Shown in pieces: positions 38,493 to 41,741 of a stretch of 64,000 bases of DNA. A program made the position numbers and the translations under genes. The DNA comes from Dysidea avara (Eukaryota). The stretch is from the NCBI RefSeq assembly GCF_963678975.1, contig NC_089281.1:27729151-27793150 (forward strand), written 5' to 3'. The notes beneath the pieces are model-generated. The model searched no databases, was not told the DNA's origin, and saw nothing but the letters and a program-made list of their open reading frames with translations. The stretch's first letter is position 1, and each line of letters begins with the position of its first letter.

Positions 38493-38867
38493 TTAAAAGT
38501 CCCTGTGCTCATCAATGCGGCCCATCTCAGGAGAGGCATCAGAGGAGCGATGCGAGATGGACCTACTTCCACGTATGCACATTGTAGCTGACCGAAGTAG
38601 AGAAAAAGACAATGTGCATCGGATAAAAGCCAGAGTCTGACTGTAACTAGTAGAGCCACGGCGAGATAGATGGTCAGCCAAACGACGGTAGAAAACTATT
38701 GCCTCCCTTCCCATACCTCCAGTGGTCGCAAACACAAGGGGAGTGAAGGAGGCCGGCTCAACCTCTCTGACACGGTCACCATACTCACGTTTCTTCTGTG
38801 CCTCGTGACGTCGATACAAAGAGGGGACACTGGTGTTGCAGTAGCTCGGTGCATTAGGATGAAACAC
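38493..38867 (-). pseudogene. Remnant of the retrotransposon C-terminal restriction-like endonuclease region (…YRRHEAQKKREYGDRVREVEPASFTPLVFATTGGMG…). Same frame as the RT ORF but separated by stops
   Basis: Resembles the R2 RLE tail (…LHREKRNKYG…VRATSCTISWRGVW…). Several stop codons lie between the end of the RT ORF (39093) and this segment. Confidence 0.45.
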
Positions 38868-39092
38868 CCTTACGTCAAAAAGGCACTTTGCCGCTGCCCC
38901 CAGAATCCCCTAGCATGTATGTCTGCCCTAGCCTCATCCTGTAGCAGCGCGATGTCTTGGCTACGTTGTCGCATCAGCTTCTCGTTGCTCCGCTCAGCGA
39001 TTGCGTGCCTTAGGGGCGCGCTCTCACAGTGGTTGTCCCATCAGCCATAGGGCACTTGACCTTGTACTATCAGAGGGTCGGGTGCCTTCCCC

Positions 39093-41213
39093 CTAATTAT
39101 TTAAATTGCTCCCTTTAATCTCAGTCCAATTTTTGTCTAGCACTTCAACATCTAGTGCTAGGGGTGGTGGCAAGGGGTGCTGGTTACCCCGGGAAAAAAA
39201 AAAGAAAAAAAAATCCTGACGGTTGGCAGTCTTAGGTGCAATGATCTCCCCAGTAAGTGGCTGTAAAGGTGGCTCAAGGGCCACACCATGACATGTCTTG
39301 GAAAGCCACTCTGCAGTGATGTTTCGCAAAGCATTGTGGCGAACAAATGTGAGGCCTCCATGTCTGCAAATCATAGCATGATCCACAGAAAATGGGACCC
39401 CACAAACACAGTGACTGGGTATGTTCAGGAGCTTCCAGCCGTATCTAAGATGCAAGGCATCCCAAAATTCTTGCTTCAACAGATGGAATCCCTGCTCTGC
39501 TAAAGGCAATGCTGTCAGCCAGGCAGAAGCACCCGGTTCACTGTTCAGGTCTAAAACTCTTTGGGATTGTGACAAAAGATTAGATTTGATCGTAGAAGCC
39601 CTCCCCCTCAAAGTAGAGCGACGATCCTGATGAACCTGAGCCTTGATAGAACTAACGTCGGGTAGAGGGGCTAGTAGATTCTGAGCAACAATCAAAGATC
39701 TCAGAGAGTGTGTGATTTTGATAGATGCAGTAAACTGAGAATCAGCAATGTCTACAGGATTGACAATACCCAAGCCACCTAGGCGGCAGGGTAGAGAGAG
39801 CACATCACGCTCTAAGGCAGAACAAGCACCATGGCCAGTGAGGGCAGGGATCAGCTTCAAACGGATGGCATCCTCTAGAGGCTGAAACAGGGGCCCGACA
39901 TTGGGGATGGTCCTCATGATGTATACCCACCGGCCTATCATCCCATGAGTGAAAGCACAAAAAGCCGCATGAGGACGATTTGTAGCAATCTCAGCCAAAG
40001 CAAGCACTTCACTGGACCAAGAACAAACCTTCTTGGCCACAAACCCCTCTGCAAATTCTCGAGAGCCCAATGCAGCCCCAAGATGGCGCTGGCCCTGATC
40101 AGTAATCTGCATACCAGTGTCAGCAAAGATAGATTTTGCAATAGTTAACAAATGAGGCTTTACAATCAACACTGTCTTAGATGCATTAGAAAAATACCCG
40201 AAATTAGGTCCCAAAGAGGATAGTATCTGCCACCATTTATGCAAAAGTTTCAGTTTCCCCACCGCAGTGGCATCATCTGCAAACCATACCTGCCCAACAC
40301 TGGAGACTGCCACACGGAGTCTTTTAATTAAGGGAACCACAGTCAGGGCATACATTACCATTGCGAGAGGATCTCCTTGAGTTGTTCCTTCACAAGATGG
40401 GATTTCACCCTCTCCAACTACAAACAATCGGACTGGCTGAGCATAAGTGTTGTTCAGGATAGTAGAAAATGCAGGACAAAGGATGGATATATTATGTAGG
40501 GCAGCTTGGCGATTCACACAATTGAATGCATTAGTAGCATCCACTAAGAGTGCAGCTTCACAATCACTGTCATCAAACATATTCTTCATAGCATGTACAG
40601 CAGCCTCAGAGCCAGCTGATTGTCCTGCACAGGTCTGTAATGGGCCAGTGGCCAGCGCAATATCATCACCTATAACATAAAGGATCGCCTTAGCAACAAT
40701 TCTACGGGGCACGTCACCAATACCTATTGGTCTCACACCTGGGCGTTTATCGAGAGGTATCAGCCTGCAAGCAACAAAAGGCATCAAAATTGCAGGTTCA
40801 ACTGTAGTTACGGATAAGCAGCGGGCAACAGAGGCCAAGGCTTGGCACAGTTCAACAGAAGCCTCATTAAAAGAGGTGCACAGACGCTTCCACCCATAAG
40901 CATCCACACCAGACAAACCGGCAGCACCATGAGTATTAAGTGCTGCACGCTTGATAAGATCGCCTGTGAGAGAGTCAAAGATTATCGGATCAAACTGGGG
41001 AGTGATTGGATCACCAGTAGGATCTAGAAGAATGTCAGGGGTAGCAGACTTTGCTGATGGATGTTTCTCTAATAGAATGTCTCTAGCAGTTCGATGTACA
41101 GGATTTCCCGATGGATCCACACCACAAGGAATCATTGAGTCTAGTGACAACACTCCACCTTTTGAATCCTCCGACAGTAAACGAAGAGCCATACCAACCT
41201 TGCCCTCAGACAT
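39093..41213 (-). CDS. Reverse transcriptase ORF of the R2-like non-LTR element (706 aa): RT motifs 1-7, thumb, CCHC zinc knuckle, start of a PD-(D/E)xK-like segment
   Basis: Motifs [101 protein letters not shown], RQD and LALDVEVLD. An internal T9CT10 homopolymer encodes FFFFFFS. Confidence 0.8.
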   Translation of the reverse strand: [706 protein letters not shown]

Positions 41214-41465
41214 TAAATGATCAAACAGATGAGAGCAATCATGGAGCTTCCCCCCTAGTGAATTATTCTACCTAAGGTGGTCCTGTATACACTGACCCTC
41301 ACGCAGCAGATCATCAAAAGACCCCTTGCACCATAAATCCAGTCTTCGTATCAAATGAGATGAATGATCCTTAGCCTTGCTGTTTTTGTAAGGTTTTTGT
41401 AGAAGTAAAGGTTGCATATCTTGCAAGTTCTTTCACAAATCGCTTTCCAGCCTTGCCAAAGGGTA

Positions 41466-41741
41466 TCAGAAACACATTTGGCTTCCAGTGGACAACTTTT
41501 TCATACGCCGACAACATGAAGTTGCAGACAAGTTCACCATGAACATCGCCCCACTGAAATCAGTGTAGGGTGCATACACAGGTGCTGGGCCTGATGTAGT
41601 CTCTGAAGCACATTGCTCACCATTAGTCATGTTGTATCCAGAACAATGTGGACAGACAAAATCATCCTGAGATGTTCCTATCCGGACAGCATCTGGATAT
41701 GACAACCCTAAGCAGTCAAAATGATACCACACACACAACAA
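41466..41741 (-). pseudogene. N-terminal Cys/His-rich, PHD-like (C4HC3 second half: CVWYHFDC…FVCPHC) segment of the retrotransposon. In frame with the RT ORF but separated by a TGA. The first half of the finger (LMLCCDKQCEGCCVCG) lies in another frame
   Basis: Spacing C-x4-H-x2-C…C-x2-C. An upstream C-x3-C / C-x2-C cluster is visible only after a 1-nt frameshift, so the copy is decaying. Confidence 0.45.

What the first reader, a model, noticed from the sequence alone, without database searches (positions are those of the whole stretch)
38493..41741. The retrotransposon pairs a PHD-like N-terminal zinc finger with a decaying endonuclease tail
Upstream of the RT ORF, in the same frame but after a TGA, lies CVWYHFDC…DDFVCPHC, the second half of a C4HC3 (PHD-type) finger. 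The matching first half, LMLCCDKQCEGCCVCG, is readable only in a shifted frame. Downstream, the RLE-like region is split. The RQD and LALDVEVLD motifs end the RT ORF just after an unusual T9CT10 tract encoding FFFFFFS. The …RRHEAQKKREYG…FTPLVFATTGGMG segment, which resembles R2 EKRNKYG…ISWRGVW, lies about 80 codons further on, behind stops. This copy has an intact RT but probably inactive DNA-binding and endonuclease modules, and it may propagate in trans. A PHD-type finger differs from the CCHH and Myb N-termini described for R2-group elements.
Basis: partly seen in the sequence, partly recalled or inferred. Interest (0 to 1): 0.6.

Follow-up and report, generated by a model that had tools for sequence, protein, structure and literature searches.

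The report
Dead PHD-finger LINE with nested insertion
This is a dead, minus-strand copy of a LINE retrotransposon whose family really does carry a chromatin-reader-type PHD zinc finger ahead of its reverse transcriptase and restriction-like endonuclease. The "split endonuclease" and the odd T-tract come from a fragment of a second, related LINE that inserted into it.

Summary
They belong to one non-LTR retrotransposon on the minus strand, 38386-42124, with a poly(A) tail and a 14-bp target-site duplication. An uninterrupted paralogue of the target lies at 44941-45449.

- **ORF.** About 1046 aa after repair: PHD finger, conserved N-terminal domain, RT, CCHC knuckle, PD-(D/E)XK restriction-like endonuclease (RLE).
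- **PHD finger: real.** A 94%-identical sibling copy has it intact. Relatives score 37-38 bits on Pfam PHD. The nearest solved structures are H3K4me3-reading PHDs (DIDO1, CFP1, BPTF).
- **RLE: real.** Structure models match only R2 proteins significantly.
- **RLE motif assignment: wrong.** T9CT10 is the poly(A) tail of a 271-bp, 5'-truncated fragment of a second related LINE family, inserted on the plus strand with a 6-bp duplication. "LALDVEVLD" is antisense translation of that insert. The true catalytic motifs are ARADI, FFDVRV and HE..KK.
- **Copy is dead.** Seven disabling lesions; substitutions look neutral. Propagation in trans has no support.
- **Clade.** Not R2 proper and not HERO-like. 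The RT is nearest CRE-type references. R4 and NeSL could not be tested.

This is an ordinary decayed transposon. Its family architecture (PHD plus RLE LINE) is mildly interesting.

The parts
42125..42138 (.). 5' copy of the LINE's target-site duplication (+ strand ATCTCAATTCCTTT)
   Evidence: The paralogous empty site at 44941-45449 carries this sequence once.
41906..42124 (-). 5' UTR and 5' end of the LINE
   Evidence: Homology with sibling copy L001 starts at window 42107. The 18 nt next to the TSD are not shared with L001.
41903..41905 (-). ATG start of the reconstructed ORF (MSLRRSARIR...)
   Evidence: It is the same start as P0001.
41643..41806 (-). PHD finger (W-CxC...CxxC-x4-H-xx-C...CPHC), broken by TAG 41806-41804 (TGG in the sibling copy) and a TG insertion at about 41737-41736
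41214..41556 (-). Conserved pre-RT N-terminal domain (FQWGD...LLLQKP...IQDHL), carrying a 1-bp deletion (~41556), a 62-bp deletion (~41417) and a nonsense TAG (41270-41268)
   Evidence: The homologous region has pLDDT above 90 in the P0002 model.
39219..41213 (-). Uninterrupted native part of the 706-aa ORF: RT fingers and palm (Pfam RVT_1 about 40736-40161; FADD at 40286-40266), thumb, linker, CCHC knuckle (39410-39366) and start of the RLE (RHN at 39341-39321)
39213..39218 (.). Target-site duplication of the nested insertion (ATCCTG), right copy
38942..39212 (+).
   Evidence: Absent from sibling copy L002. tblastn of P0139 against the insert gives E = 6e-8. No tRNA or Rfam match.
38936..38941 (.). 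Target-site duplication of the nested insertion (ATCCTG), left copy
38493..38935 (-). Remainder of the RLE domain and C-terminus: ARADI (38932-38912), FFDVRV (1-bp T deletion at ~38881; DVRVF at 38876-38862), HEAQKKREYG (38807-38778), FTPLVFATTGGMG (38747-38709), stop TAA (38495-38493)
38399..38492 (-). 3' UTR with a hairpin at about 38458-38434, followed by GGGGTGGTAGGCAAGGG...CCCGGGG
38386..38398 (-). Poly(A) tail (AAATAAAAAAAAA)
38372..38385 (.). 3' copy of the LINE's target-site duplication (+ strand ATCTCAATTCCCTT)

Best explanation
**What it is.** Window 38386-42124 (minus strand) is one full-length but dead copy of a non-LTR (LINE) retrotransposon, about 3.5 kb in its native form. Its single ORF encodes five modules in order:
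- an N-terminal PHD finger of the H3K4me3-reader subclass;
- a conserved helical pre-RT domain;
- a reverse transcriptase;
- a CCHC knuckle;
- a PD-(D/E)XK restriction-like endonuclease (RLE).

**How it got there.** It inserted by target-primed reverse transcription. A bottom-strand nick left a ...TTT-3'OH that primed on the poly(A) tail. Second-strand cleavage 14 bp away produced the ATCTCAATTCC(C/T)TT duplication.

**What happened afterwards.** The copy picked up seven disabling lesions: two nonsense TAGs, +2 (TG slip), -1, -62, -1, and a 271-bp 5'-truncated fragment of a second, related LINE family. That fragment landed in the opposite orientation inside the endonuclease domain, with a 6-bp duplication.

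**What this explains.** 'LALDVEVLD' is its antisense translation. The 706-aa open RT frame is simply the longest stretch not yet hit.

**Shown versus inferred.** Shown: boundaries, lesions, domain identities, intact relatives. Inferred: the TPRT details, and that the PHD finger tethers the integration complex to H3K4-methylated chromatin.
For: **Boundaries.**
- TSD and poly(A).
- The flanks, joined, align without a gap across the junction to window 44941-45449 at 92.7% identity.

**Sibling copies at 97-98% nucleotide identity.**
- L001 has the intact N-terminus and PHD.
- L002 is a 5'-truncated copy. It reads ...[29 protein letters not shown]... with no insert.
- Lesion list.

**Family.**
- 911 proteins at E <= 1e-5. 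Full-length members are about 1000-1100 aa.
- P0002 (1080 aa, 66% identity, 100% coverage) is continuous from PHD to RLE.

**PHD.** Pfam hits. PDB profile hits: DIDO1 4e-9, Pps, CFP1, BPTF, MLL5, PHF2, TAF3.

**Architecture.**
- AF2 model of P0002: pLDDT 86.8. Best PDB matches are R2Bm 8gh6 (E = 2.6e-19, 1029 columns), R2Tg and R2Pm, then LINE-1 ORF2p, Prp8 and group II RTs.
- C-terminal model of P0139: pLDDT 85.3. It matches seven R2 chains at E <= 2e-4 (TM 0.53-0.58), then Prp8, bunyaviral cap-snatching endonucleases, restriction enzymes and TnsA.
- Family-invariant residues: C, C, H, C, then D (ARxD), D (FFD) and K.

**Nested insert.** It encodes the C-terminus of a related LINE (SSAMSWLRCRISFSLLRSAIACLRG...*), tblastn E = 6e-8.

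**Neutral decay.** There are 28 differences from L001 over 1692 bp. Codon positions are 10/7/11, with 10 synonymous and 18 non-synonymous.
Against: - Pfam scores for this copy itself fall just below the curated cut-offs: PHD 23.1 against 24, and RVT_1 25.4 against 29.6. Membership therefore rests on relatives and on structure.
- All seven lesions spare the 2.0-kb RT stretch. My arithmetic gives p of about 0.006 for so large a lesion-free gap. That is mildly at odds with purely random decay, but the finding was selected for its long ORF.
- The 18 nt between the 5' TSD and the start of homology to L001 are unexplained.
- The host organism and the genomic copy number are unknown.
- PHD-histone binding and any integration bias are untested.
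Confidence: 0.9

Rival explanations
1. First reader's version. An R2-group element keeps an intact RT while its own endonuclease 'tail' decays around an intrinsic T9CT10 homopolymer. RQD and LALDVEVLD are the split RLE motifs. The copy may still spread using proteins supplied in trans.
For: The RT frame is open for 706 aa and its catalytic FADD is intact. All lesions lie outside the RT. The RLE really is interrupted.
Against: Sibling copy L002 lacks the tract and the 277 bp around it. The insert carries its own 6-bp duplication and its own ORF remnant on the other strand. The family-invariant Asp residues are in ARADI and FFDVRV, not in RQD or LALDVEVLD. Substitutions look neutral. No second copy sharing these lesions was found.
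Confidence: 0.05
2. The 271-bp insert is a SINE that shares its 3' tail with this LINE, making a SINE/LINE partner pair.
For: It is short, poly(A)-tailed and flanked by a TSD. It shares a 23-nt 3' core with the LINE 3' UTR (0 of 2000 shuffles reach the score) and a hairpin at the same position.
Against: Its first 108 nt encode the conserved C-terminus of this LINE superfamily, ending in a stop codon. There is no tRNA-like or Rfam head. No other copy occurs in the window, L001 or L002.
Confidence: 0.05
3. The family belongs to the HERO clade, the non-site-specific RLE LINEs of animals.
For: HERO is the RLE clade described as mostly non-target-specific in metazoans (PMC4640811, PMC9004415). Size and single-ORF layout are similar: HEROTn is 1181 aa.
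Against: The HEROTn RT fragment scores 0.4 bits against the family HMM, against 14.4 for the same region of CRE2. A profile of 36 HERO RT fragments gives hhalign probability 0.5-1.5% (score about 19). Over the same core, CRE gives 95% (56.3) and R2 gives 86% (43.4). HERO's GIITGCTIS motif is replaced here by GTTQGDPLA.
Confidence: 0.08
4. The open 706-aa RT frame is kept by selection, either as a domesticated host RT gene or as an RT-only element.
For: The lesion-free stretch is larger than expected (p of about 0.006, my arithmetic).
Against: Differences from the sibling copy are spread evenly over codon positions (10/7/11). The ORF begins at an internal Met of the ancestral protein and ends inside antisense junk from the nested insert. 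It has no independent N-terminal domain. The finding was also selected for its long ORF.
Confidence: 0.03

Closest known systems
R2 retrotransposon proteins (R2Bm, R2Tg, R2Pm; PDB 8gh6, 9nl3, 9nl2)
   Same: A single ORF with RT, linker, CCHC knuckle and a C-terminal PD-(D/E)XK endonuclease. R2 proteins are the best structural matches for both the whole protein (E = 2.6e-19) and the C-terminal domain (E = 3.5e-6). Mobilisation by TPRT.
   Different: No CCHH zinc finger or Myb N-terminus; a PHD finger sits there instead. The insertion is not in 28S rDNA. It makes a 14-bp TSD and has a poly(A) tail. Sequence identity is only 14-17%. The RT profile is closer to CRE than to R2.
CRE clade (CRE1, CRE2, SLACS of trypanosomatids)
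   Same: An RLE-type LINE. It is the best RT profile match among the references I could obtain: hhalign 98%, score 102.5 over 322 columns, and CRE2 45.5 bits. It shares the DxxNA(F/Y)N and Q-x-G-x-G motifs.
   Different: The known CRE elements are specific for spliced-leader genes in kinetoplastids, whereas this element sits in an unrelated repeat of an AT-rich eukaryotic genome. No PHD is described for CRE in the papers I could read. The reference sequences came from an OCR'd supplement and cover the RT only.
HERO clade (HEROTn, HERODr, HERO-1_SP and others)
   Same: RLE LINEs of animals, mostly without strict target specificity and of similar size (PMC4640811, PMC9004415).
   Different: RT core motifs differ, and profile comparison gives probability 0.5-1.5%.
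CR1 and L2 LINEs with a PHD domain in ORF1 or at the N-terminus of a single ORF (Metcalfe & Casane 2014, PMC4120745)
   Same: A PHD finger placed upstream of the RT in a LINE, proposed there to act as an epigenetic reader that guides integration. No functional study exists.
   Different: Those are APE-endonuclease LINEs of the Jockey superfamily. Here the PHD is fused to an RLE-type LINE.
H3K4me3-reading PHD fingers (DIDO1, CFP1, BPTF, PHF2/8, TAF3, MLL5)
   Same: The closest solved relatives of the family's PHD: E = 4e-9 for DIDO1. The pattern (Y/W)CxC...MIxCDxC..W(F/Y)HxxC is shared, including both aromatic positions.
   Different: The sub-lineage in this window has a 4-residue Cys-containing insertion (CDKQCEGCC) before the Trp. 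Histone binding is untested.

Membership tests
RLE-type (R2-group, early-branching) non-LTR retrotransposons | A single ORF with the RT followed by a CCHC knuckle and a C-terminal PD-(D/E)XK restriction-like endonuclease | tested here: met
   Alignment with intact relatives. Foldseek top hits are R2 proteins for both the full-length and the C-terminal models.
RLE-type (R2-group, early-branching) non-LTR retrotransposons | Conserved catalytic D...D...K and CCHC residues | tested here: met
   These residues are invariant in alignments of 72 and 55 sequences. The codons are present in the window copy, but the frame is broken.
RLE-type (R2-group, early-branching) non-LTR retrotransposons | Hallmarks of target-primed reverse transcription: no LTRs, a 3' poly(A) or simple tail, TSDs, 5'-truncated copies | tested here: met
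   TSD plus an empty-site paralogue. Poly(A) tails of differing length in two copies and a 5'-truncated copy, L002. The nested fragment is also 5'-truncated.
R2 clade sensu stricto | N-terminal CCHH zinc finger(s) and a Myb motif | tested here: not met
   Pfam finds only PHD in the N-terminus, with no zf-C2H2 or Myb.
R2 clade sensu stricto | Site-specific insertion in 28S rDNA | tested here: not met
   The target is a non-rDNA repeat with a paralogue in the window. There is no rRNA in the window.
HERO clade | RT groups with HERO reference RTs | tested here: not met
   HEROTn fragment: 0.4 bits. HERO fragment profile: hhalign probability 0.5-1.5%. Only partial HERO sequences were available.
CRE clade | RT groups with CRE1, CRE2 and SLACS | tested here: inconclusive
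   It is the best of the references tested. But there was no tree, R4 and NeSL references were missing, and the reference sequences were OCR'd.
CRE clade | Insertion into spliced-leader RNA genes | tested here: not met
   The target sequence is not a spliced-leader gene. No Rfam family is found in the window.
R4/Dong and NeSL/Utopia clades | RT phylogenetic placement | not testable with these tools
   No reference sequences could be obtained.
PHD finger (Pfam PF00628) | C4HC3 ligand spacing and a profile score above the curated cut-off | tested here: met
   For the family: P0004 scores 38.2 and P0008 37.0 bits against a cut-off of 24. The PDB profile hits DIDO1 at 4e-9.
H3K4me3-reader subclass of PHD fingers | Aromatic-cage residues and binding of methylated H3K4 | tested here: inconclusive
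   The two aromatic positions align with DIDO1. Binding cannot be tested here.
SINE (considered for the 271-bp insert) | A non-coding body with a pol III-type head (tRNA, 5S or 7SL) | tested here: not met
   The insert encodes a LINE C-terminus. No tRNA or Rfam hit was found.

The most novel reading that the evidence does not exclude
A large animal-associated lineage of restriction-like-endonuclease LINEs, with an RT nearest the CRE type, may have replaced the sequence-specific ZF/Myb DNA-binding N-terminus typical of RLE elements with interchangeable chromatin- or DNA-reading modules. One sub-lineage carries an H3K4me3-reader-type PHD finger. Most others carry an uncharacterised Cys-rich module, CCxCNxxGxCxxCxCVxxGxxCxxC. 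On this reading the PHD finger would steer integration towards active-promoter chromatin, the LINE counterpart of chromodomain targeting in chromoviruses. I found no description of this for RLE LINEs in the literature I could search.
Probability: 0.2. Interest if true: 0.55.

Novelty: new variant of a known kind. Interest (0 to 1): 0.3.

Why it matters
**For this locus: little.** It is a dead transposon copy with a nested insertion. The apparently unusual features (split endonuclease, odd homopolymer, an RT that looks "intact") have ordinary explanations.

**For the family: modest interest.** RLE LINEs are being developed as site-specific gene-insertion tools, and their N-terminal modules determine where they insert. 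A natural RLE LINE that carries a histone-mark reader instead of ZF/Myb would be a ready-made example of chromatin-guided rather than sequence-guided targeting. Sister lineages that carry a different Cys-rich module show that the N-terminus is swappable.

**A methodological point.** Motif reading across a nested insertion produced a false endonuclease motif.

Tried and rejected
- **SINE hypothesis for the 271-bp insert.** I held this until one search showed that the insert encodes a LINE C-terminus. The tRNA scan and Rfam scan were negative.
- **HERO membership.** Tested with a HEROTn fragment from a paper supplement and with 36 database fragments, then rejected.
- **LTR-like reading of the flanking arrays.** The 31-bp satellite arrays (36046-38028 and 42678-43418) are not LTRs. 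The TSD and the empty-site paralogue place the element's ends well inside them.
- **Literature on PHD in RLE, HERO, CRE or Cnl1 LINEs.** Nothing was found. The only PHD reports concern CR1/L2 ORF1.
- **Reference alignments in supplements.** No HERO, R4 or NeSL sequences were held. One OCR'd RT alignment supplied CRE, R2 and BLAG references only.
- **Source names for homologues.** None were informative.
- **AFDB50 fold search.** The library was not available.
- **Exact look-up of the window's 706-aa ORF.** It is not on record, so neither the window's own assembly nor copies sharing its lesions could be traced.
- **3' UTR hairpin.** Folding energies are no better than shuffles (z = -0.3 and -0.7). 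The hairpin rests only on positional conservation and one compensatory pair.
- **Rfam at gathering threshold over the whole window.** No hits.
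Full report
**1. What is in the sequence**

The feature lies on the minus strand. A 706-aa ORF (41213-39093) has a weak Pfam RVT_1 match. G+C rises to 46-48% across 38-42 kb, against about 36% elsewhere.

**2. Boundaries**

- On the minus strand the element ends ...CCAGCCCGGGGAAATAAAAAAAAA, followed by AAGGGAATTGAGAT.
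- The same 14-mer, AAAGGAATTGAGAT, precedes the 5' end at 42138-42125.
- Joining the two flanks gives a sequence that aligns without a gap across the junction to window 44941-45449 at 92.7% identity over 510 bp. That is an uninterrupted paralogue of the target.
- The element is therefore 38386-42124, with a 14-bp target-site duplication and a poly(A) tail. These are the hallmarks of a non-LTR retrotransposon.
- The 31-bp satellite arrays on either side (36046-38028 and 42678-43418) belong to the host repeat, not to the element.

**3. Reconstructed protein and relatives**

Stitching the frames gives a 1046-aa protein. It finds 911 proteins at E <= 1e-5. Many are 1000-1100 aa long and cover 90-100% of the query.

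- P0002 (1080 aa, 66% identity) is continuous from the N-terminal finger to the C-terminus.
- P0001 comes from a sibling copy at 97-98% nucleotide identity (locus L001). It reads MSLCRSARI...GLWCCCGGVDDGRLMLCCDKQCEGCCVWYHFDCLGLSYPDAVRIGASQDDFFCPHC in a single frame. This is the sequence I predicted by removing one TG and reverting TAG to TGG.
- A search with the C-terminal 257 aa found P0139 (96% identity), from a 5'-truncated sibling copy (locus L002). It reads ...[43 protein letters not shown]... with no interruption.

**4. The lesions**

DNA alignment with L001 and L002, plus codon checks, gives seven disabling lesions:

| Lesion | Position |
|---|---|
| TAG replacing TGG, inside the PHD | 41806-41804 |
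| +TG in a (TG)n run, inside the PHD | about 41737 |
| -1 bp | about 41556 |
| -62 bp | about 41417 |
| TAG replacing CAG | 41270-41268 |
| 277 extra bp | 38942-39218 |
| -1 T in a T6 run, inside FFDVRV | about 38881 |

The -1 and -62 deletions together remove 63 bp. That is why the second PHD half and the RT ORF happen to share a frame.

**5. The T-tract and 'LALDVEVLD'**

The 277 bp consist of a 271-bp insert plus a second copy of ATCCTG (38936-41 and 39213-18).

I first took it for a SINE. It shares a 23-nt 3' core with the LINE 3' UTR (0 of 2000 shuffles reach the score) and a hairpin at the same position. However, its plus-strand frame reads SSAMSWLRCRISFSLLRSAIACLRGALSQWLSHQP*. That is the conserved C-terminus of this very superfamily (tblastn against P0139, E = 6e-8). 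It has no tRNA or Rfam head.

It is therefore a heavily 5'-truncated copy of a second, related LINE family, nested in antisense. 'FFFFFFS' and 'LALDVEVLD' are antisense translation of that insert.

**6. Domain identities**

*PHD.*
- The repaired N-terminus scores Pfam PHD E = 7.7e-5 (23.1 bits, just under the cut-off of 24).
- P0004 and P0008 score 38.2 and 37.0 bits.
- A family profile hits solved PHD fingers of DIDO1 (4e-9), Pps, CFP1, BPTF, MLL5, PHF2, TAF3 and PHF8. I know these to be H3K4me3 readers.
- The aromatic residue before CxC and the Trp before His are both conserved.

*RT and RLE.*
- An AlphaFold model of P0002 (pLDDT 86.8) matches R2Bm, R2Tg and R2Pm best (E down to 2.6e-19, about 1000 aligned columns). 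LINE-1 ORF2p, Prp8 and group II RTs follow.
- A separate model of P0139 (pLDDT 85.3) matches seven R2 chains at E <= 2e-4 (TM 0.53-0.58). After those come only weak hits to other PD-(D/E)XK nucleases.
- The invariant columns are the CCHC ligands, RHN, the Asp of ARxD, the Asp of FFD, and the Lys of HE..KK.

The RLE assignment is therefore correct.

**7. Is the copy alive?**

No. Besides the seven lesions, the 28 differences from L001 over 1692 bp fall 10/7/11 on codon positions, with 10 synonymous and 18 non-synonymous. That is a neutral pattern.

One oddity remains. All lesions spare the 2.0-kb RT stretch, and my arithmetic gives p of about 0.006 for that. However, the finding was chosen because of its long ORF. 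No copy sharing the lesions could be looked for. Propagation in trans is unsupported.

**8. Which clade?**

- It is not R2 proper. There is no CCHH or Myb N-terminus and no rDNA target.
- I recovered a HEROTn fragment from the supplement of PMC9004415, and CRE, R2 and BLAG RT sequences from the supplement of PMC7650587.
- Bit scores against the family HMM: CRE2 45.5, SLACS 26.5, R2La 24.4, HEROTn 0.4.
- Profile-profile comparison over the whole RT: CRE 98.0% (score 102.5), R2 95.9% (72.5), group II 78%, BLAG 63%.
- Over the RT core, using a 36-sequence HERO fragment profile: CRE 95%, R2 86%, HERO 1.5%.
- The family is thus an RLE LINE whose RT is nearest CRE-type references and is not HERO-like. 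R4 and NeSL could not be tested, and no tree was built.

**9. N-terminal variability**

Among 72 relatives, about 6 carry a PHD. About 33 carry a different Cys-rich block, CCxCNxxGxCxxCxCVxxGxxCxxC, which has no Pfam match. The rest carry neither. The N-terminal module is evidently exchangeable.

**10. Comparison with what is known, and novelty**

PHD fingers are documented in ORF1, or at the N-terminus of single-ORF forms, of CR1 and L2 LINEs. [quoted passage not shown] My searches found no paper describing a PHD on an RLE-type LINE.

I rate the locus as ordinary. I rate the family architecture as a new variant of a known kind, with low to moderate interest.

**11. Mechanism**

Inferred unless marked as shown.

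1. The element's RNA is bound in cis by its protein.
2. The RLE nicks the bottom strand where a short T-run can pair with the poly(A) tail. The target ...TTCCTTT|CAAACC is shown.
3. The RT primes from that 3'-OH.
4. Second-strand cleavage 14 bp away gives the TSD. The nested copy's TSD is 6 bp.
5. Incomplete reverse transcription yields 5'-truncated copies. Both L002 and the nested fragment are shown examples.
6. The 3' UTR hairpin plus the G-rich box is conserved between two families that are only about 50% identical at the protein C-terminus. It has one compensatory pair (C-G against U-A). It may be the RT recognition element, although its folding energies are not significant.
7. The PHD finger plausibly tethers the complex to H3K4-methylated nucleosomes.

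Noticed in passing
window 36046-38028 and 42678-43418; L001 33-1619: Long arrays of a 31-bp satellite (consensus CTCTCTACAGGGTGATTTGTTTGTAGCTGAA) lie on both sides of the LINE's host repeat. The same satellite lies just upstream of the sibling LINE copy in L001, in the other relative orientation. This could be chance in an abundant repeat, or a regional insertion preference.
   Followed up: partly
window 44941-45449 (also 45176-45628): An uninterrupted paralogue of the LINE's target region, 92.7% identical. The repeat unit contains an ORF-like stretch (...GLKFGTLNGLIKADL..NCGRNPMNIHGVMTDYLRKIR...) with no Pfam match. The nature of this repeat is unknown.
   Followed up: partly
window 42381-42472 (similar sequence at 35427-35771): A 40-nt inverted repeat, 95% complementary, with a 12-nt loop. 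It gives only sub-threshold miRNA-precursor-like Rfam hits, and related copies occur elsewhere in the window. It may be a MITE-like palindromic repeat.
   Followed up: no
window 38434-38458 and 39136-39162: The 3' UTRs of the host LINE and of the nested LINE fragment share a hairpin at the same position (CCAGCAC...GTGCTGG against CTAGCAC...GTGCTAG, one compensatory pair). Both are followed by GGGGTGGT(A)GGCAAGGG and ...CCCGGG plus poly(A). This may be the RT recognition element, but the folding z-scores are not significant.
   Followed up: partly
window 39726-41417 against L001 3550-5241: 27 of the 28 differences between the two LINE copies are transitions, and 10 fall at CpG sites. CpG observed/expected is 0.49 in the element and 0.33 in the flanking 36 kb. 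This suggests methylation-driven decay in a CpG-depleted genome.
   Followed up: partly
relatives P0013-P0120 (N-termini): About half of the family carries a Cys-rich N-terminal block, CCxCNxxGxCxxCxCVxxGxxCxxC, in place of the PHD finger. It has no Pfam match and may be an undescribed zinc-binding targeting module.
   Followed up: partly
window 9048-9713 (minus strand): A 221-aa ORF containing ...LFADDCIIYKAI.... It looks like the RT remnant of a different LINE, but has no Pfam hit at E <= 0.01.
   Followed up: no
protein P0196: A family member (59% identical to the C-terminal query) is labelled in NCBI as a hypothetical protein of a Proteobacteria MAG. This is most likely eukaryotic host DNA binned into a bacterial metagenome-assembled genome.
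   Followed up: no
window 38386-42124: All seven disabling lesions lie outside the 2.0-kb RT stretch, which makes up about 64% of the ORF. My arithmetic gives p of about 0.006 for so large a lesion-free gap, but the finding was selected for its long ORF.
   Followed up: partly
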